Of a stretch of 64,000 nt of DNA, positions 2,993 to 63,668 are shown piece after piece. This DNA comes from Eledone cirrhosa. Lineage: Eukaryota. The notes under the pieces were generated by a model, which was given only the letters and a program-made list of their open reading frames with translations, had not been told where the DNA came from and ran no database searches. Position 1 is the first letter of the stretch; each line of letters starts with the position of its first letter. The translations under genes and the position numbers were made by a program. The stretch is from the NCBI GenBank assembly GCA_964016885.1, contig OZ024742.1, forward strand, positions 354,826,001-354,890,000. The letters run 5' to 3'.

Positions 2993-3046
<54 letters not shown>

Positions 3047-3049
<3 letters not shown>

Positions 3050-3285
3050 ATAGTAATAAATGTGAAGACTAAAATCCAAAGAGGGCTCGATAAGGATAAA
3101 TATATATCAAATATACAAGAACCCTAAAGCAAATATTTATTAAAATAACAGATTAAAGTGTGAGCAAAGAATCGCTGCTTTCACCCTTAACGAGATCTTC
3201 TGAAACTAAGGTTAGTTTCAGAAGATCCCGTTAAGGGTGAAAGCAGAGATTCTTTGCTTAAACTTTAATCTGTTATTTTAATAAA

Positions 3286-3290
<5 letters not shown>
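3047..3290. mobile_element. Palindromic PLE pLTR cassette (family N) between (TA)n tracts
   Basis: Arms 3132-3209 and 3212-3290 are reverse complements around a 2-nt GG apex. Same family at 190-250, 33961-34046, 48518-48970, 55645-56365, 60845-61260 and 62690-62770. Confidence 0.85.
3214..3264 (+). ncRNA. Type I hammerhead ribozyme, U4A core variant (family N)
   Basis: AGTTT CAGAAGA TCCC GTTAA GGGT GAAA GCAGAG ATT CTTTGC TT AAACT: 5-bp stem I, stem II, 6-bp stem III, CUU site. Minus-strand copies at 3157-3207, 48628-48678 and 60863-60913. Confidence 0.7.
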
Positions 3291-3919: not shown

Positions 3920-5889
3920 TAAAGGTTAATTACATACCACACAAGCAATAACAAATCCAAGACATTGAAGAAATAAAGAATGAAAAATAATAAAAGATAA
4001 AAGATATTGAGGAAGTAAAAATAAAAATAATAATAAACATTGAAAAATAAACAATGAAAAATAATTGAAAAATAAGGGGTGCTATCAGTCACAGTTGGGC
4101 GGGGTGCTGTCAACATATAGTTACATACAAGCATACACATGGATAAGAGAACAGACAAGCATACAAGCATACACATGGATAAGAGAACAGACAAGAATAG
4201 ATAAGATAGATAGGATTAGGTAAGAGTAGATAAAAAATAGGTGAAAAATAGGTAAAAAATAGACTTATAATAAATATAAGAAAATATAAAAAAACATACA
4301 TATAAAATATAAAATATACAGATAATAGTGATACAGGGTAAGGAATGAAATAAAATAGAATAAAATAATATAAGATTAAAATTAAAATTATATAAAATAG
4401 AATATAATATAATATAATAATAAAATAAGATAAAATAAAATAAAATAAAATAAACTAAAATAAAATAAAATAAACTAAAATGAAATAATATAATATAAGA
4501 TATAATTAAATAAATAAAATTAGATAAATAAAATTAAATAAAATGAAATGAAATAAAATAAAATAAAATAAAATAATGTAAATTGAGATAAGATATATAT
4601 TTTTTTAGAATATATTTCTTGAATATATCAGGGGCCCACGAAGGCACTAAGTGTCACAGTTATCAGTATCACTTGACCATTGCAATGCAATGGAGACGTC
4701 CCAGGTTGGGCAGTCTCAAAAGTTCACTCGAAAGTCACGGGTGTGCATTCACACAGTTGAGCGGTGGGGTAATCACAAACCGGTTCATACCCGGGCAGGA
4801 GTCCAATGGTCAACAGAGGTACATCGAAGGAAGGTAGGAGAATTCACGTGCAGCAGCAAGAGGCAGACAGGTGGGCCGAAAGCAAGCAGGTGCAGGCGGG
4901 CTAGCCGAAAGTAAGCAGACACAGTTGGGTCAGGCGGGTTAATATGCATACTCAACAGCGCATACAAAATATATATAAAAAATAATACATATATAAAAAA
5001 TAGCTTCGATGTACCTCTGTTGAGCATTGGACTCCTGCCCGGGTGTGAACCGGTTTGTGATTACCCCACCGCTCAACTGTGTGAATGCACACCCGTGACG
5101 TTCGAGGGAACTTTTGAGACTGCCCAACCTGGGACGTCTCCATTGCATTGCAATGGTCAAGTGATACTAATAACTGTGACACTTAGTGCCTTCGTGGGCC
5201 CCTGATATATTCAAGAAATATATTCTAAAAAAATATATATCTTATCTCAATTTACTTTATTTTATTTTATTTTATTTTATTGCATTTCATTTTATTTAAT
5301 TTTATTCATCTAATTTTATTTATTTAATTATATCTTATATTATATTATTTCATTTTAGTTTATTTTATTTTATTTTAGTTTATTTTATTTTATTTTATTT
5401 TATCTTATTTTATTATTATATTATATTATATTCTATTTTATATAATTTTAATTTTAATCTTATATTATTTTATTCTATTTTATTTCATTCCTTACCCTGT
5501 ATCACTATTATCTGTATATTTTATATTTTATATGTATGTTTTTTTATATTTTCTTATATATATTATAAGTCTATTTTTTACCTATTTTTCACCTATTTTT
5601 TATCTACACTTACCTAATCCTGTCTATCTCATCTATTCTTGTCTGTTCTCTTATCCATGTGTATGCTTGTATGTAACTATATGTTGACAACACCCCGCCC
5701 AACTGTGACTGATAGCACCCCTTATTTTTCAATTATTTTTCATTGTTTATTTTTCAATGTTTATTTTTATTTTTATTTTTATTTTTATTTTTACTTCCTC
5801 AATATCTTTTATCTTTTATTATTTTTCATTCTTTATTTCTTCAATGTCTTGGATTTGTTATTGCTTGTGTGGTATGTAATTAACCTTTA

Positions 5890-15976: not shown

Positions 15977-16087
15977 TAATGCTTGTGGAAGCAGATATAT
16001 TTCAATTACATACATAATATGCGAACACAATTGAGTTTACGCAATCATGTTTTTTAATCATATATATATATATAAATATATAAATAG

Positions 16088-16984
16088 GATTTCGCTTGAA
16101 GCATAGTTTTATACAATATGTATAAATATTTCGTATCTCCAAAGAAATACGGTTTTAGGAAGCCGTAGCAATGTAAACACCGGGGGGCTAACGCCCTCTG
16201 GTGATGTCCAGCACAAGCAAGTGGGACAACCGCTTATGCATTTCAGGCTTAACTAGCCTACGTCAGGACGGTCCCTCCCACAGCTCGCGACTGCTGGACT
16301 AGAAGACAGGCGAGAATATATACTTTTCTCGTCTGTGTAAATGAGGTGATTAATCTCATCTGCATATGAAGCTGCATAATTTGGCTCAACTTATAATAGA
16401 AAAGAAATAAGATTTCGATTCAAGCATAGCTTTATACAATATGTATAAATATTTCGTATTTCCAAAGAAATACGGTTTTATGAAGCCGTAGCTATGCAAA
16501 CACCGGTGAGGAGGGGAGGGGGTGGGAGTGGGCTAACGCCCTCTGGTGATGTCCAGCAGAAGCAAGGGGTACAACCGTCTATGCATTTCAGGCTTTACTG
16601 GCCTTCGTCAGGACGGTCCCTCCCACCGCTTGCGACTGCTTGACTAGAAGACAGGCGAGAATATATACGTTTATCTTCTGTGTAAATGAGGTGATTAATC
16701 TCATTTGCATATGAAGCTGCATAAGTCGACTCAACTTATAATAAGTAAGAAATAATAAAAAAGAAAATGTATATATTCTCGCCTGTCTTCTAGTCCAGCA
16801 GTCGCAAGCGGTGGGAGGGACCGTCCTGGTGAAGGCCAGTTAAGCCTGAATTTAATAGACGGTTGTCCCCCTTGCTTCTGCTGGACATCACCAGAGCGCG
16901 TCAGCCCCCGGTGTTTGCATAGCTACGGCTTCCTAAAACCGTATTTCTTTGGAGATACGAAATATGTATACGTATTGTATAAAG
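16088..16984. repeat. Two tandem ~330-bp repeats plus an inverted partial copy
   Basis: 16088-16410 and 16410-16752 direct. 16767-16984 inverted and abutting the PLE endonuclease region. Confidence 0.88.
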
Positions 16985-21928: not shown

Positions 21929-22000
<72 letters not shown>

Positions 22001-22006
<6 letters not shown>

Positions 22007-22612
22007 CAGGTACACATACATATATGCACGCATCAGTTTAGCGGACGCTTATTATAACGCCGCTTTGTTCGTTTGTAAACAAACTGAACAGCCTGAATTT
22101 ATGCCATACGGTGTTAAGGCAACCACGTCACCTTTTTGTTCAACACTGACACAGGAACGATGTACTAGTTTCAAGCTTGTTAGCTATCATCAGCACCGTT
22201 TACCCATCTGCCAGATAGTTGAACGTTCGAAAGAATATACTTTCCTTATGAAAATTAACGGCTGAGCAGCCTAATTTGCATATTTTCAACTTATCGTTTT
22301 CGGTATGCCTGACCGATTTAATTCACTCAATATGCAAATTAGGCTGCTCAGCCGTTAATTTTCATAAGGAAAGTATATACTTTCGAACGTTTAACTATCT
22401 GGCAGATGGGTAAACGGTGATGATGATAGCTAACAAGCTTGAAACTAGTACATCGTTCCTGTGTCAGTGTTGAACAAAAAGGTGACGTGGTTGCCTTAAC
22501 ACCGTATGGCATAAATTCAGGCTGTTCAGTTTGTTTACAAACGAACAAAGCGGCGTTATAATAAGCGTCCGCTAAACTGATGCGTGCATATATGTATGTG
22601 TACCTGTATGTA
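22001..22612. mobile_element. 612-bp palindromic HHR cassette between (TA)n tracts
   Basis: Arms 22001-22284 and 22329-22612 near-identical, 44-nt spacer, no coding content. Confidence 0.92.
22158..22198 (-). ncRNA. Canonical minimal type I hammerhead
   Basis: CGGTG CTGATGA T AGCT aaca AGCT T GAAA CTAG TA CATCG. The plus-arm copy 22415-22455 has C3A. Confidence 0.88.
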
Positions 22613-22698
<86 letters not shown>

Positions 22699-42819: not shown

Positions 42820-45800
42820 GTGTTGAAGTATAAAGACGTGTTTTCACTTCTCTCCCCAAGTAAGCAGCAAGTCACACAGCTACGAAAGAAAACCAAACAA
42901 ACCAAATTGTCCGGTCAAATACATTTACATACAACTATATTCTTATATATTTGAAACCACGTGTTTACCAACTTCTGAGTACATTTTACTTTAACTACAA
43001 ATTATTATATACTTTCGTATTTTCATTAATTTCATTAATTTCAAATAACTAGAATATATTTATATATATATATACTCATATTCATATATACACTTCTCAC
43101 TCACACACAAGAAAAACAAAAGAAAACAAAAAAAAATATATTGAAATACTTAACTAAAACACACACACTCAAAACTAGAATGGCTAACCAGCAAAAATCC
43201 AAACAGAACTGGTCTGATAATGAAATCGACATTCTAATAAACACATGGCATTGCCTTACCCAAACAGAAGACATAGATGCTTCATGTCTGAACGACATTG
43301 CTAAACGTACAGTTCACCTTTTGAAAACCCGATCTGAACAACAGATTCAAAATAAATTAAAGCAAATCGAAGTTGCTTTTAAATTAATCAATAAACATTT
43401 GGATAAACTACGGTGTGTTTTGTTCTTCGGACGCTGTCCAGCAGCAGCAACAGCAGCAATAAGAACAACAGCAGAAACAACGGCAACAACAACAACAGCT
43501 ACAACAACAGCAGCAACAACAGCAACAGCAGCAGCAACAACAACGACAACAGTAACAACAACACCGACAACAACAACAACAGTGTGAACCACTCCCTGAT
43601 TCATCAACAATGGCCGATCTACTAAATGAAACTATTGACCTCCCAGTAGCCACTGTCTCACAGCAGGAAAGGCCCCTTCCTTTCTCTGCCCCAGCAGTCC
43701 AATCATCACCACTGCCAACATCTCCTATGCCTACTACTACTAATACTACTACTACTACAACATCTTTGCCTACTGCTATCTCAAGGAATTTACCTTCTAA
43801 TACCATACGAGAACTCTCCCTCCCACAGCTCACAAATGTCGTCAAAACCTACTCAAACCATCATCTACACCTCTCACAACACACACACACACACATACAC
43901 ACCCACTCGAAACCCCATCATTTGCCGCTACTCTCTACGCTATAGAATATGTACGGATAGTGGCTGCAAATTCACCCATTTACCTAGGACAAAACGGTCT
44001 ATCCCCACAAACAGCCACCACCATAATACATATACTATTTTAATACCAACACAACCATCAATAACTCAAACAAGGAATACACAGATCTGCCGCTTTTCCC
44101 TGCGAGACAGATTGTGTTTACACCGGGATTGTCCATTTACCCATCTCCCGGGGACCCGTCGGACAAAAGAAAATAAAAATAAAAATAAAAGCAAAAACAA
44201 AAACCATAACCTACATAAAAATAACCACTACCACAGTCACCAACAGATTCCAAAACAGGAAACTTCTTCCTCTTTTTTAGCCATAATGAATCTGGCAAAA
44301 GAACTGGAAAAAAAACATTCGAGCTGTCACCCAGCACCATCCTCCACTATCACCCCACTGCACAAACTCCCATTGCTGCCATTAACAAACAAACAAATTA
44401 ACAACACACCAAAACAATTAAAACCATCAACTCTCACCTCAACATTTTTGCTTAACGCCCAAGGCATCAGACCTTTCACCAATACTCAAAAATGGAAGAT
44501 CAAATTCCTGGAGGACTGGGTTGATGTCCATCCAAACCACATCCCTTTCTTCGTCCTCACTGAAACCCATCTCAGTAACCTCCACTTGGAAGCCAAGGTG
44601 AAAGTGAAAAATGTCAAAGCCATCCGTGCTGATCGCGCTGGCAGAAGAAAGGGTGGGACTGCCATTTATGTCCATAAGTCTTTCTCAACAGAGGCTATGA
44701 ACATATTTACTAATGGATACTACGAAGCAGTCACTGTATTCAGTCAAACCAACAACCTAATAGTAGTTGGGCTCTATAGGCCACCCCAAACGCCTCTACC
44801 ATGCTTCAAGGAATGCCTCAACGGTATAAAGTGTTTCATCCAAGAGTGTCACCCTGACAACATCTTAATGATTGGGGACTTCAACCTCCCCGGATTTGAC
44901 TGGTCCACAAACAGCCTGCCACCAGGTTCTTCTGCCTCAACCTCTGACAGGGAAGCAGTGGAAACGCTTCTTGACTTCATGGATGATTTCTTCCTGTCCC
45001 AACTGGTGCTCGAACCAACGAGGTGCCACAAAAACGTCCTAGACTTAATTTTCAGCAATCACACTGACAATATCCACAATATTGCAGTGGAGAAAACTCT
45101 ACTCTCTGATCATGACATACTTCTCTGTGATCTGAGATTCAACCGTCCAATATACAAACCCAATGTCATCTCTCCTGTCTATCCGTTTGACGCTATGGAT
45201 TTCCACAATGCAAACTGGGAAGCGATCAGTCATGATCTTGCACATGTCGACTGGCCTTCACGCACACTCATACACCCACTAACATTAAAAAGTCCTGGCA
45301 GACATTTGTGGACACTGTTACAAACATATGTGCAAAACACACCCCATTAAGAACTATAAATAAATCTAAGAGCAGAATCCCTAGAAATAGAAAAACGCTC
45401 ATCAGGAAGATTAAGAGAACTAACAAAAATATCAACAAGCTGAAATTCTGTCAGCAGCAACACATCAACTTGACTGCCATTTCATCACTAGACATTAAAA
45501 AACATAACCTCCAAAACAATATGATGTATGTCATCAACAATCAGAGAAGAGCTGAAGAGGCCTGGGCCATTGAGAAGATCAAACGCAATCCCAAAGTGTT
45601 CTTTTCATTTACAAAAAAACACAAAATCACTGGCTCTACTGTTGGCCCTCTAATTGATGAAGATGGCACTCTTCAAGACAATGCTAAAACCATGGGTGAG
45701 ATACTGCAGAAAATTACTGCTCTATTTTCAGCAATCCTGATATGGCCGATCTGGGCTGTATCGGCGATGTTACTCCCCATTACACCTTATTGGACATAAC

Positions 45801-47472
45801 GTTTGGCGCCTCTGATGTCTTAGCGGCAATAAAAGAAATCAAGCATAATTCAGCAGTAGGTCCCGATAGGTTCCCTGCTTGTGTCTTGAAGGCGTGTCAA
45901 CACCAACTTACATCTCCTCTTGCCAATCTGTGGCGGAACTCACTGGATGCTGGATATGTGCCAGAAAACCTACTATCCCAGTCTGTTGTCCCAGTTTTCA
46001 AAAAAGGAAACAAATCCCTTGCCGTGATTTACAGTACAATCTCACTACCCTCTCATATCATTAAGGTATTTGAGAGAGTAGTGATATCGCGAATGACTCA
46101 CTTCCTTGAGAGTAACAATATGCTGAACTCCAACCAGCATGGATTCCGTAATGGAAGGGACTGCCTGACGCAGCTACTGCATCACTTTGATGACATTTCG
46201 AGAGCTTTGGGAGAGGGTTCCAACACTGATGTTATCTACCTTGATTTCAGCAAGGCCTTTGACAGGGTTGATCACAACATTCTACTGAGAAAGCTGTCCA
46301 ATATTGGTGTCACTGGAAAGCTGATGCAGTGGATCAAGAGCTTCCTGTCAAACAGAACCCAACCTGTTGTAGTCGAAGGAGTGAAATCCAGCAGAGCCAA
46401 AGTCAGTAGTGGGGTCCCACAAGGCACTGTGTTGGGCCCACTTCTCTTCATCATCTATATTTATGACATCAATGACATCATCAAACACAGCAACATTAGA
46501 ATTTTCGCTGATGATTCCAAGCTCCAAAAGGTCATCAATGGCAAGGATGACTGGATAAGCCTTCAGTTAGACCTACTGGCTGTTACCCACTGGGCGGAAA
46601 AGAACATGTTACTGAACGAAGACAAATTCGAACTGATCCACTTTGGAAATGAGGATGCTCTGAAACTCCCGTACTCCTTTCCCTCCAGTGAAACTCTCGT
46701 GGTATCTAACAACATCAGAGACTTGGGAGTAACCGTGGACAGCAACATAAGCTGGGCCACGCATATAAGCAGCAATGTTGACATGGCCCGCAGAATGTGT
46801 TCCTTGATCCTCAGAACCTTCCAGTCGAGAGATTCCCACACCATTATCCTTCTCTTCTCCACTTTTGCCCGACCTCATCTTGAATACTGTTGTCCACTGT
46901 GGTCTCCCCACACGAAACAAAGTATCATGAAACTTGAAGCTCCCCAAAGGGCAATCACGAAAAAGATAGATGGCATGTCAGACCTTGACGACTGGGATCG
47001 ACTAGAAAAGCTGAAACTTTACCCACTTCAACGTCGCCGTGAGCGTTATATTATCTGCATGATGTGGAAAATGTTTAATCAGCACAGCCCAAATGATGTT
47101 GGCATAACCTTCATAATACACCCAAGGTTTGGGCCCCGTGCTATCCGTCCCAAACAAAAATCTAAATCGCAACTCATAACAACAATACGGCACAATTATT
47201 TCACCTCAATTGGCCCTGCTCTCTACAATATCACACCAGGACACGTCAGAACAGAAACGGACCACACACATTTCAAGAAGTCTTTGGACAAATTCCTCCA
47301 AGTAATCCCGGACAAACCACCCACACCCGGATATGTCTCGGCAAACAGTAATTCTCTTCTCGAATGGGCCATGGTGCCCAAATCCTGAATTGAAAGACTT
47401 CGCCAGGTGGTGCTATTAAGTTAAATATGGCCAGGGTCAATACTGGCGAAAACATTTCAAAGTTATTCAAAG

Positions 47473-48456: not shown

Positions 48457-48520
<64 letters not shown>

Positions 48521-48975
48521 ATAATAATAAATTTGAAGACTAAAATCCAAAGAGGGCTCGATAAGGATGAATGTATATCAAATATATAAAAACCGGAGAG
48601 CAAATATTTATTAAAATAACAGATTAATGTTTAAGCAAAGAATCGCTGCTTTCACCCTTAACGGGATCTTCTCAAACTAACATAGTCAATCTGTGAAACG
48701 CAGAAGTGAATATTTCAAAAAACGTTGCGACCGGAGGAAGACAGGAAGACAGGAAGGTACGGGTATGTTCTTTGTAGAAATATTCAGATGTTGTTTCTGC
48801 ATGATGAATATAAGTCAATTGACTTACGTAAAATATTAACTTCCTCTAATAATTAATCCTACTAACCCAATCATCGAGGACACTACACTTCGGCTTTTGA
48901 CACTTAGTATTCTATATCGCAGCTCTTTGTATTTCTCTGACACCATCTTCACTTACGAGTTTGTAACCTTGTTAT

Positions 48976-55538: not shown

Positions 55539-55616
55539 TGCCTCTCTTTTGTTCTGTCCTACGCCATCTTGTTTCTCTTGAAACAAGATGGCGTAGGAGA
55601 GAACAAAGGAGAGGCA
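55539..55616. repeat. 78-bp palindrome
   Basis: cctacgccatcttgtttc TCTT gaaacaagatggcgtagg. Confidence 0.8.
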
Positions 55617-55675
55617 TTAACTAATGAATATATATATATATATATATTTATTAAAATAACAGTTTAAGGTTTAAG

Positions 55676-56360
55676 CAAAGAATCGCTGCTTTCACCCTTA
55701 ACTGTATCTTCAAAGAATCGCTGCTTTCACCCTTAACGGGATCTTCAAAGAATCGATGCTTTCCCCATTAACGGGATCTTCAAAGGATCACTGCTTTCAC
55801 CCTTAACGGGATCTTCAAAGAATCGCTGCTTTCACCCTTAACGGGATCTTCAAAGAATCGATGCTTTCACCATTAACGGGATCTTCAAAGGATCACTGCT
55901 TTCACCCTTAACGGGATCTTCAAAGAATCGCTGCTTTCACCCTTAACGGGATCTTCAAAGAATCGCTGCTTTCACCCTTAACGGGATCTTCAAAGAATCG
56001 CTGCTTTCACTCTCAACGGGATCTTCAAAGAATCGCTGCATTCACCCATAACGGGATCTTCAAAGAATCGCTGCTTTCACCCTTAACGGGATCTTCTAAG
56101 AATCCCTGCTTTCACTCTGAACGGGATCTTCAAAGAATCGCTGCATTCACCCTTAACGGGATCTTCAAAGAATCGCTGCTTTCACCCTTAACGGGATCTT
56201 CAAAGAATCGCTTCTTTCACTCTGAACGGGATCTTCAAAGAATCGCTGCATTCACCCTTAACGGGATCTTCAAAGAATCGCTGGTTTCACCCTTAACGGG
56301 ATCTTCAAAGAGTCGCTGGTTTCACCCTTAACGGGATCTTCAAAGGATCGCTGCTTTCAC

Positions 56361-56365
<5 letters not shown>
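55676..56365 (-). repeat. 35-bp tandem array (19 full units + 25 nt) derived from a hammerhead core
   Basis: Unit CAAAGAATCGCTGCTTTCACCCTTAACGGGATCTT with an exact 35-bp period from 55676 to 56341. Matches the family N HHR. Confidence 0.95.
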
Positions 56366-56423
<58 letters not shown>

Positions 56424-56424
56424 A

Positions 56425-56971
<547 letters not shown>

Positions 56972-60801: not shown

Positions 60802-60844
<43 letters not shown>

Positions 60845-60851
<7 letters not shown>

Positions 60852-62770
60852 TAACAGATTAAAGTTTAAGCAAATAATCGCTGCTTTCACGATTAACGAG
60901 ATCTTCTGAAACTAAAAAATCAATCTTTGTACGCAGAAGTAACTATTTCAAAAAACGTTGCAACCGATGGAGGACAAGAAGACGATACTTTGGTTCGTGG
61001 AAATGTTCCCTGGCAAAGAACGAAAAAAACGAAGATAATACGTCATTATTTGGACCGGTGAAACAAATAGGCGCAAAGACAAAACAACGTTGATGGTATA
61101 AATGAAGTGATAGACAAATATTCTTTGAGGGGGTCCATGGAGACGTTCCCTGGCAATGAACGAGAAAAACAAAGATAATACGTCAAAACCACGTAAAAGG
61201 TATAACTGAAGTCGTAGACTAAAATTCTATCTAGGAAACCGAATGATTCTCAGCTTCAAAGTTAAGAATAAAGTAAATAAAATACTTAGGTAATCCACAT
61301 TAAATATATACATACACGCACCCATGTACGTACATACACAAGTATACGCGAAAACACTCGCCATGGGTATACAAATAGAAGCATGTACATAAAAAAAGCC
61401 GCACGCCCATACAGAACCCACTCAACGCTTGTACCCGCACACATACGGACGAATACACCAAATACACATAAGACTATATATAAAATAAATACATATATAT
61501 ATATGTGTCTGTGTGCGAGTGTATACATATAATTAAATACATGTATATAAATAAATAAATACTTATATAACGCGCGCACACACATACCCACATGTAAAAA
61601 CACGTATGTTCGCAGATGTACGTCAAACAAAACACAAAGTACACAAATACACACACCCTACATATGTACGAACCCGCATACTCACACAGACGCAAAAATC
61701 ACGTATACACAGAACCAAATGCACATGTAGCAGAATATATAATATCATATATACGGCTATAACATATACAAGCAAATATACGAACGAGAAAGTATACGTA
61801 CCTTCACAAAACATACAGGTAATATATACTTACCTATACAAATAAGTAATGTTATAAACATAACATATACTTAGCTACCACATCAAGACGTAACATATCC
61901 GCGTATAGTTCGTACTATCCGTTAGGGTATAATGTGGAGCTGTAATATGAGAAAGATTTGTGCAATCTATGTTTACAAGCCGAAATTGCCTCAGATTTTT
62001 TGTTTAAGATGTGGTCTTTGGCGTAGGGTATTTCCAGGGCCTCAGCGGCGTAGAGGTCACTTGTTCTTTTATTTCCGTTATACGATCTAGCCTTAGCTAG
62101 GATCTCCCAGTGCAACTTATCTTTTGTGTGGTTGTCTTTTAGACTCCAGCTATTAGCTGAAAGTGACATCATATTCCTTCTTAAAGGGTTAAGAAAAGAA
62201 CGGGTATGCATGTAAAGACACTGCTTGATTTTATTGCCGGTTAACCCTATGTAGGCCCTACAGGACGTGAGTGTTTCAACCTTACATTTGTAGACAATGT
62301 TACTAGAGAAGCATTTCCCGGATAGGGGGCAGTCAACACGATTCCTGCAATTACAGTTAGTACTACTTACAGGGTTGCCCGTTTTCCTACGACTAGGTAA
62401 TTTAGGTAATTTTGAAGCTGTGATGTTATGTGCAAGGTTAAGAGTCGTAGTGTAAGATATTTTAATGGTATTCCTATTAAAAAGTGTACTATATTTATGT
62501 GGTTGGGGGAAATGCTTCATAATAAGGGAGAGAAAGATCTTAGCTAATGGTGGGTTATCCCATGTAATACATCGGGATCTATTTTTCCTAGGTCTATTCT
62601 CGTACTCTGTATATGCTACCTTAATGACAAATCCACTCCGAGCAAGTGCTTCATTGTAATATGTGGAATGGTCGTTGAAAAAATATTCGGTCTATGTTTC
62701 TTATATATTTGATATACAATTATCCTTATCGAGCCCTCATTGAATTTTCGTTTTCAAATGTTATTATTAC
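60845..62770 (-). mobile_element. Nematis-like PLE 3' fragment carrying the family N pLTR
   Basis: ORF 61915-62520 NCNCRNRVDCPLSGKC..IVYKC..YIGLT..CKH. pLTR at 60845-60985, inverted end at 62690-62770. Confidence 0.85.
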
Positions 62771-63043
62771 TATATATATATATATTTGGGTCCCAAAACA
62801 CATATATTTCCGTGACTTTGTTTAATCGGTGTATGTGTAAATATTTAAATTTAATAATCTCCCTTAAGATTGAGATACAATTTGGGCGATATTGGGCTGC
62901 GCTTTCTAGCAACCAACCCACTCGCCGTAAGCAATCAATCACACTCTTTCTGACTTGACCACTGCCACGTCACAGATCTCAGCCATTTTGAATTCGTGTT
63001 TGGCGGGGGCCACTTCAGAAAATAATTTGTCCTAGCGAGTTTG

Positions 63044-63120: not shown

Positions 63121-63466
63121 TTTAGTGATTTAATCCTGGTATGTATATACGCATTTCTAACTTTAATTGTATACCTAATTGTGTATGGTCGACCGTATAT
63201 TTAATTAATTTCCACGTGCTCTTGAAATGTTAGGTAAATATTCTATACGCTGTCGTTTATTTATTTACTGTTTCTTCGTAGGTGCCTTTTAATCTTAAAG
63301 CCTGGTCTAATTGATTTTGTGTGTGGTTAATTATGCTAATTGGGAGAAGAAATGATGTATATATATTATTAAATAATTCTCTGGACATGCTTTACTTTAT
63401 AGTATTTCGCTCTGATTATTTAATTCATTAATTCTTCATTGAGCCACATCGTGAATGGGTGCCAAA

Positions 63467-63668
<202 letters not shown>

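What the first reader, a model, noticed from the sequence alone, without database searches (positions are those of the whole stretch)
55676..56365. 35-bp tandem array that amplifies only the catalytic core of a hammerhead
Seen: on the minus strand each unit is AAGA-TCCC-GTTAA-GGGT-GAAA-GCAGCGATTCTTTG, exactly the core + stem II + stem III of the family N HHR (3214-3264). Unit junctions rebuild a TTGAAGA box via a shared G. Stem I and the CUU site are omitted except at the terminal unit (~55668-55676). Variants recur every third unit (3/6, 4/7; 10/13/16, 11/14/17), a 105-bp higher-order period. Known: HHR satellites of newts and schistosomes repeat whole ribozymes. Inference: reiterative copying of a short structured RNA template by a telomerase-related PLE RT, or DNA-level amplification. 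It may give a multi-core RNA.
Basis: partly seen in the sequence, partly recalled or inferred. Interest (0 to 1): 0.82.

Follow-up and report, generated by a model that had tools for sequence, protein, structure and literature searches.

The report
Minisatellite born from a Penelope hammerhead
About twenty head-to-tail copies of a 35-base piece of a jumping gene's ribozyme-like RNA motif sit in one insertion; they are predicted not to form a working ribozyme, were partly multiplied as DNA, and likely began as a slip during insertion, so this is probably a one-off genomic scar and not a new RNA machine.

Summary
The array is real: 19 full 35-bp units plus a 24-bp part on the minus strand, between two (TA)n tracts, with variants recurring every third unit (shuffle p about 1e-5). 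The unit is most of the hammerhead-like motif at the 3' end of a very abundant Neptune-type Penelope-like family, and the array ends at that family's commonest terminus. The unit lacks core positions 3-4, the end of stem III, the cleavage triplet and stem I; neither internal nor terminal units are predicted to fold a hammerhead, and the parent core is itself non-canonical. The 105-bp pattern shows DNA-level copying for 10 of 19 units. Units are as diverged (4.1%) as other family copies (3.6%), and the unit's 5' edge falls where family copies often break, so the first junction was likely made at insertion. No second array was seen: the junction is not among 15 of 87 joints shown in four runs, and none of 40 hammerheads in 79 related loci is arrayed. 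Telomerase-like reiteration is not excluded for the oldest nine or so units but has no positive support. Verdict: a retroelement-derived minisatellite of modest interest.

The parts
55676..56340 (-). 19 full 35-bp units: core A6-A9, stem II with a U-U base, GAAA, stem III up to G16.3
56341..56364 (-). 24-bp partial first unit; starts in loop II and joins the (TA)n tract through a shared TA
56026..56270 (-). part of block A (units 3-11, 55956-56270): three related 105-bp triplets, 3-4 differences apart; units 3-9 shown here carry five of the marker variants
55746..55920 (-). block B marker units 13-17: two related 105-bp triplets, 1 difference apart, 8 differences from block A
55673..55675 (-). 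CUU triplet, the only cleavage-site triplet of the family register in the array
55644..55672 (-). 3' strand of stem I and the family's short tail, ending at the commonest family terminus (equivalent of 48604)
55628..55643 (.). (TA)n tract at the 3' end (likely the target)
56364..56530 (.). (TA)n tract at the 5' end
3214..3264 (+). intact parent hammerhead-like motif (stem I 5 bp, CAGAAGA core, stem II 3 bp, stem III 5 bp, CUU), right arm of a tail-to-tail hairpin insertion 3039-3288
48512..48820 (-). family copy with long tail; used as the reference for read laying
60839..62780 (-). 5'-truncated Penelope-like copy: inverted family-like tail (about 62675-62780), ORF fragment, long 3' UTR, the same hammerhead-like motif (60863-60913), short tail; (TA)n on both sides
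61915..62691 (-). 258-aa ORF fragment: RT C-terminus, cysteine linker and GIY-YIG region of Neptune type

Best explanation
This is a minisatellite made of a 35-bp piece of the hammerhead-like motif of a Penelope-like retroelement; its first junction was likely made by the element's reverse transcriptase during insertion into a (TA)n tract, and 10 of its 19 units were later copied or homogenised at the DNA level. Inferred steps: cDNA synthesis began at the usual tail end, ran through the uncleaved CUU site, stalled at G5/A6 where family copies often break, and re-entered a template three bases 5' of the cleavage site, giving a very short version of the partial tandems that these elements leave. 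A few units then multiplied early by slippage or unequal exchange. Shown from the sequence: after three or four substitutions per 105 bp had built up, whole 105-bp blocks were duplicated three times and one single unit once. The product is predicted to be catalytically dead.
For: The 3' end sits at the family's largest loose-end class (2,243 and 2,359 reads at the 48604 equivalent in X6 and X7). 9 of the 12 inverted joints shown have one end within 48663-48679, and 2 of them at 48670, the unit's first base; read depth falls from about 7,100 to about 1,200 across this zone in X6. A direct go-back of about 67 bp that covers the core and re-enters 4 bases from the array's re-entry point is seen in X6 and X7 (64-70 reads, 1-2 starts), as is a direct tandem of about 320-330 bp (19-25 starts). 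Units differ from their consensus by 27 of 665 bases (4.1%), four other arms by 11 of 308 (3.6%; Fisher p 0.86), and the unit consensus equals the family majority. Triplets within a block differ by 1-4 of 105, between blocks by 6-8. Partial tandems, inverted truncated copies, tails and (TA)n targets are described for these elements (PMC8557442 passages); internal initiation on uncleaved RNA is shown in vitro (PMC11167929).
Against: The junction has one base of microhomology and nothing in it separates a reverse-transcriptase jump from a DNA repair event. The reading of the inverted joints as 5' truncations is inferred from the window's own hairpins; the tool does not give their orientation. 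Part of the fall in depth reflects indels between reads and reference. A 35-bp window falls within 2 bases of the observed register in 5 of 43 positions of the short arm (12%), so chance is not excluded. The 67-bp go-back is one locus or two. Age equality has wide error (17 distinct alleles).
Confidence: 0.5

Rival explanations
1. Purely DNA-level origin: one ordinary family copy inserted, an early slippage or repair event duplicated 35 bp, and the array grew by slippage and unequal exchange between two unstable (TA)n tracts. The overlap with the ribozyme motif is incidental.
For: DNA-level copying is shown for 10 of 19 units. The window holds 111 TRF rows and about 0.11% of reads in X6 and X7 touch this family (13,810 of 12,467,656; 14,135 of 12,785,554), so rare accidents have many chances. 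No second array seen. Minisatellites derived from transposable elements are common (PMC9659126 passages).
Against: No sequence upstream of G5 survives anywhere in the insertion, which a simple internal duplication would leave unless it was lost later. The multimer is about as old as the family's insertions. The unit's 5' edge coincides with two independent inverted joints.
Confidence: 0.3
2. Reiterative synthesis: the reverse transcriptase cycled several times over the G5-G16.3 stretch of the folded motif, as telomerase or DRT2 do over their templates, and laid down up to about nine units in one insertion; DNA-level duplications came later.
For: After collapsing the duplicated blocks about nine full units remain that share no variants, apart from one allele in the partial unit and block B, and they are as old as the insertion. 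The two ends of the unit lie next to each other in the predicted three-way junction, with stem I as a possible boundary. PLE and telomerase RTs are sister groups (PMC8557442 abstract).
Against: The alignment region would be one base, against five in telomerase and a flanking ACA repeat in DRT2 (PMC12039810 passages). A built-in cycling habit should leave many arrays in so large a family, yet depth shows no spike over the unit and the junction is not among the 15 joints shown, the weakest of which have about 40 reads. 0 of 40 hammerheads in 79 related loci and 0 of 14 motifs checked in the window are arrayed. It cannot produce the lag-3 pattern.
Confidence: 0.14
3. The array encodes a functional multi-core RNA, or is the copy of a 35-nt RNA circle (a miniature retrozyme).
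For: Junctions restore U4 and give a UUGAAGA box; the family has tandem units of about 320-330 bp that look like retrozymes; dimeric hammerheads exist (PMC6155905 passages).
Against: Internal unit: stem I 1 of 5 pairs, site AAG, hammerhead fold +4.0 kcal/mol against an alternative at -10.0. Terminal unit: stem I 2 of 5, stem II 1 of 3, +8.7. Parent: -5.8. C3 is replaced, and C3 mutation abolishes cleavage in a PLE hammerhead (C3G; PMC11167929). Variants hit GAAA and stem II freely. Self-cleavage would give a 3' end at U17, not G16.3. Retrozyme units reported so far are 51-972 bp and keep whole motifs.
Confidence: 0.04
4. The array, or its length, is an assembly artefact.
For: No indexed run holds more than 0.20 of the 51 sampled words, close to the 22% of distinct 31-mers that do not cross a junction (98 of 441).
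Against: 17 distinct alleles arranged in two nested duplication blocks are not what collapse or stutter gives. Contigs drop rare variants, and organism A may not be the window's individual or species.
Confidence: 0.02

Closest known systems
Partial tandems and pLTRs of Penelope-like elements, Neptune clade (PMC8557442, passages)
   Same: Sense-strand hammerhead-like motif near the 3' end, tail, (TA)n target, 5' truncation, inverted truncated copies; direct repetition of the 3' region.
   Different: The repeated piece is 35 bp, lies inside the motif, leaves out the tail, and is repeated about 20 times.
Minisatellites derived from transposable elements (Alu, B1, MaLR examples in PMC9659126, passages)
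   Same: A single-locus array of a short piece of a high-copy element, with higher-order variant blocks made at the DNA level.
   Different: The source is a Penelope ribozyme motif; the term Penelope does not occur in that review and searches listed no such case.
Non-LTR retrozymes and newt/schistosome hammerhead satellites (PMC7229834 passages; bioRxiv 10.64898/2026.07.22.740005 parts 1-2 of 5)
   Same: Tandem repeat linked to a type I hammerhead and to Penelope-like elements.
   Different: Those repeat whole motifs in units of 150-450 bp (51-972 bp in the preprint), self-cleave and give circles; this unit has no complete motif.
Telomerase and DRT2 repeat addition (PMC12039810, abstract and passages)
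   Same: Would share repeated copying of a template bounded by RNA structure.
   Different: Both use an alignment repeat at the template ends and make the product routinely; here one base is shared and one array is known.

Membership tests
Type I hammerhead (parent motif 3214-3264) | Three stems around the core, open stem I | tested here: met
   5, 3 and 5 pairs; fold -5.8 kcal/mol but not the MFE (-11.5)
Type I hammerhead (parent motif 3214-3264) | Core C3 U4 G5 A6 N G8 A9, G12 A13 A14, A15-U16, H17 (consensus as in PMC7151607) | tested here: not met
   U4A in all four arms; all other positions met in 3214-3264.
Type I hammerhead (parent motif 3214-3264) | Position and architecture of PLE hammerheads: sense strand, near the 3' end, self-complementary loop III, U-U allowed at the base of stem II | tested here: met
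   U-U also in an axolotl motif
Type I hammerhead (parent motif 3214-3264) | Self-cleavage | not testable with these tools
   needs an in vitro assay
Type I hammerhead (array units) | Stem I, C3-G8 pair, A15-U16 pair and NUH site | tested here: not met
   internal and terminal units both fail
Non-LTR retrozyme | At least two consecutive units, each with a complete hammerhead | tested here: not met
   criterion; result
Non-LTR retrozyme | Unit of about 150-450 bp (shortest reported 51 bp) | tested here: not met
   35 bp
Non-LTR retrozyme | Expressed as linear and circular RNA | not testable with these tools
   no RNA run was available to lay
Penelope-like element insertion (Neptune type) | Family end linked to an ORF with RT, cysteine linker and C-terminal GIY-YIG | tested here: met
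   ORF 61915-62691 lies between two family-like ends; 6 longer homologues at E 1e-32 to 1e-17, one with a Pfam GIY-YIG hit at 6.5e-4, below cut-off; Atlas hits 0.96-0.97. The 5' inverted tail is only about 84% like the family, so the link rests on one locus
Penelope-like element insertion (Neptune type) | Ends at the family tail inside (TA)n; 5' truncation | tested here: met
Element-derived minisatellite | Units of 10-60 bp (recalled range) matching part of a dispersed element, with DNA-level turnover | tested here: met
Telomerase/DRT2-like repeat addition product | Alignment repeat at both template ends | tested here: not met
   one shared G; 4 of 8 bases match across the junction by inspection
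Telomerase/DRT2-like repeat addition product | Recurrent products in one register | tested here: inconclusive
   not among 15 of 87 joints shown; 72 hidden; RAD libraries sample part of the genome; no whole genome held

The most novel reading that the evidence does not exclude
A Penelope-type reverse transcriptase cycled over the core of its own hammerhead, using stem I as a template boundary, and wrote up to about nine 35-nt repeats into a (TA)n target in one event: a genomic fossil of telomerase-like repeat addition by telomerase's closest retroelement relatives.
Probability: 0.14. Interest if true: 0.78.

Novelty: new variant of a known kind. Interest (0 to 1): 0.27.

Why it matters
On the best reading it is a small example of how Penelope-like insertions seed minisatellites, and the read data point to the hammerhead region as the place where copies of this family most often break. 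If reiteration were true, it would give a defined RNA template and product ladder for testing whether Penelope-type enzymes have repeat-addition processivity, which bears on the origin of telomerase. A side result may matter more than the array: a very abundant family carries a fixed U4A core with a CUU site, so either this variant cleaves or the family spreads without cleavage.

Tried and rejected
No whole genome is held, so the genome-wide search for other arrays was not possible. Rfam: no hammerhead hit in the window, the parent, the array or the canonical control, so its silence says nothing. A 26-base family pattern found 0 matches in metagenome and viral contigs; the protein alignment found no relative in viral contigs. 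Run search: no RNA holder listed; best share 0.20. Organism B (X4) gave 5 contigs on the family reference, none showing the junction; too few to judge. A four-base TTTG microhomology route through the variant at 48673 was dropped: that variant is not the family state (about 98% of X1 depth reads the other base) and it predicts a 37-bp unit. An alternative register for stem III or a trans-acting use of the junction arm was rejected by inspection and (at most 3 of 5 stem I pairs with a family RNA). The 139-codon open frame on the plus strand (55912-56331) has no ATG and follows from one stop-removing site duplicated with block A; by my estimate about one chance in four. The flanking hairpin (55539-55616) and the element at 56540-56970 belong to other families. 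Earlier findings by place, sequence and a seven-word query gave nothing. The direct-repeat listing was swamped by (TA)n.

Full report
Observation. The array lies at 55676-56365 with period 35, 19.7 copies and 92% matches. Read on the minus strand it runs from a (TA)n tract into a 24-nt partial unit, 19 full units, CUU, a 29-nt tail and a second (TA)n tract. Shared variants fall at lag 3 nine times, at lag 6 twice, at lag 1 once and never at the other six lags tested; 1 of 100,000 shuffles reached nine at any lag.

Source of the unit. The unit matches four other arms in the window: both arms of a tail-to-tail hairpin at 3039-3288, a copy at 48512-48820 and the 3' end of a copy at 60839-62780. 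The last has an inverted, about 84% similar tail at its 5' end and a 258-aa ORF fragment between the two ends. [quoted passage not shown] The linker marks Neptune or Nematis elements (PMC8557442, passages); I call it Neptune-type without a tree. The link of family and ORF rests on this one locus.

Is the parent a hammerhead? 3214-3264 can form stems of 5, 3 and 5 pairs around CAGAAGA and GAAA with a CUU site; a block-shuffle null gave 1 such motif in 10 shuffles against 3 in the window. In 79 loci of related elements (the best 80 of 112 confirmed stretches, many near-duplicates) 37 carry 40 motifs, all on the sense strand, all with C3 U4, several with the same U-U at the base of stem II. So the parent has the place and shape of a PLE hammerhead but departs from the core consensus (PMC7151607, passages) at U4. 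Position 4 is not listed as variable among the best-supported differences in four runs, while C3 is the majority (202 rows hidden). Activity is untested. Rfam does not see it, nor the canonical control.

Can the array be catalytic? The unit starts at A6 and ends at G16.3. For a consensus internal unit the hammerhead register has 1 of 5 stem I pairs, 3 of 5 stem III pairs, AAG at the site and costs +4.0 kcal/mol, while a long alternative hairpin gives -10.0. The terminal unit has 2 of 5 stem I pairs, 1 of 3 stem II pairs and costs +8.7; the parent gives -5.8. C3 is U at every junction; C3G abolishes cleavage in the anole element (PMC11167929, parts 1-2 of 4). Variants hit GAAA and stem II. A multi-core ribozyme is very unlikely.

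How it grew. There are 27 differences in 665 bases, from 17 alleles, 8 of them shared; independent errors give 7 or more recurrent alleles in 0.4% of 20,000 trials, even ignoring spacing. Triplets 3-5, 6-8 and 9-11 differ by 3-4 of 105 bases, 13-15 and 16-18 by 1, and the other three pairings tested by 6-8. Three or four shared changes per 105 bp are far above RT error rates (recalled, about 1e-4), so they built up in the genome before the blocks were copied. Three 105-bp events and one single-unit event account for 10 of 19 units; conversion between existing units would look the same and is also DNA-level. About nine units and the partial one remain unexplained by this.

When it began. Units are 4.1% from their consensus and the four other arms 3.6% (11 of 308) from theirs; the tail differs at 2 of 32. 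The unit consensus equals the family majority in reads. The multimer is therefore about as old as the insertions, which favours an origin at or soon after insertion.

What the reads show. Four runs were laid on 48516-48860. The family is very abundant: 13,810 of 12,467,656 reads in X6 and 14,135 of 12,785,554 in X7. The largest loose-end class is (TA)n at 48604, the point where the array's tail ends. Depth in X6 is about 7,100 at 48636-48647, 5,850 at 48660-48671, 3,590 at 48672-48683 and 1,200 at 48708-48719; indels explain part of the fall. Of 15 joints shown (of 87), 12 change strand, 9 of these have one end at 48663-48679 and 2 at 48670, the unit's first base. I read these as 5' truncations, by analogy with the window's hairpins. 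Three direct go-backs are shown: two describe a duplication of about 67 bp that covers the core and re-enters at 48640, four bases from the array's 48636 (1-2 starts each), and one a tandem of about 329 bp (19-25 starts). The array's own junction is not shown and depth has no spike over the unit. The weakest joints shown have about 40 reads over X6 and X7, against about 13,000-fold depth, which would put the junction below roughly 0.3% if the list is ranked by reads; RAD libraries are partial and the ranking rule is not stated. The best holder has 0.20 of 51 sampled array words, about the 22% of words that any family copy could supply, so the array may be private, polymorphic, from another species than organism A, or dropped from contigs.

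Analogues. None of 14 hammerhead-like motifs checked in the window has a neighbouring direct repeat longer than 13 bases. None of 39 TRF rows of period 15 or more in the 79 related loci is core-like; one lies near a motif without covering it. These short metagenome contigs would tend to lose arrays. Literature searches listed no core-only array; one search gave one paper, a preprint on retrozymes whose units are 51-972 bp and by definition hold whole motifs (parts 1-2 of 5 read). I saw passages only of PMC7229834, PMC6155905, PMC9659126, PMC7151607 and PMC8557442, the abstract and passages of PMC12039810, and no supplements.

Mechanism and verdict. Shown: origin from the family's 3' end, insertion-type ends, DNA-level block copying. 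Predicted: no catalysis. Inferred: cDNA synthesis from the tail through the uncleaved site (as for the anole element in vitro), a stall at G5/A6, re-entry just 5' of the cleavage site, then early expansion (0.5). A purely DNA-level start remains strong (0.3), since the register has a 12% chance of being this close within the short arm and the junction shares one base. Repeated cycling in the manner of telomerase or DRT2 is not excluded for the oldest units (0.14), but lacks an alignment repeat and any second case. It works like a transposon-derived minisatellite seeded by a Penelope partial tandem; it is not a retrozyme and not a ribozyme array. Novelty: new variant of a known kind. Interest 0.27.

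Noticed in passing
joints 48819 to 48516 and 48817 to 48523 (reference window 48516-48860): The family also occurs as head-to-tail units of about 320-330 bp that hold the whole motif (52-69 reads, 19-25 starts; also in X1 contigs), a retrozyme-like form with a non-canonical U4A core and CUU site.
   Followed up: partly
window 3214-3264, 48628-48678, 60863-60913: A very abundant family appears fixed for U4A and G15.2-C16.2, whereas 40 of 40 motifs in related elements have C3 U4 and C15.2.
   Followed up: partly
joints 48680 to 48640 and 48697 to 48640: A direct duplication of about 67 bp covering the core but not the cleavage site, in both RAD runs, 1-2 starts; unit number unknown.
   Followed up: no
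window 55912-56331 (+): 139 codons without a stop and without ATG across block A, because position 12 is changed (to two different bases) in every third unit; probably chance.
   Followed up: partly
window 3915(-), 5894(+), 13222(+), 16611(-), 22193(-), 27846(+), 30178(-), 42092(+), 57110(-): Further hammerhead-like motifs with canonical CUGANGA cores from other families, several inside long inverted or direct repeats (4160-5673, 16069-16907, 21933-22680).
   Followed up: partly
window 56540-56970 and 63124-63475: A separate family with about 30-bp inverted ends between (TA)n tracts; two copies 83% alike.
   Followed up: no
window 55539-55616: A 78-bp hairpin with no other copy in the window lies just beyond the array's 3' (TA)n tract.
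   Followed up: no
window 60992-61185: A 140-bp-spaced internal repeat in the 3' UTR of the truncated Penelope-like copy.
   Followed up: no
window 43650-47388 (+): Broken ORFs of a non-LTR element with endonuclease-like and RT-like motifs (read, not searched).
   Followed up: no
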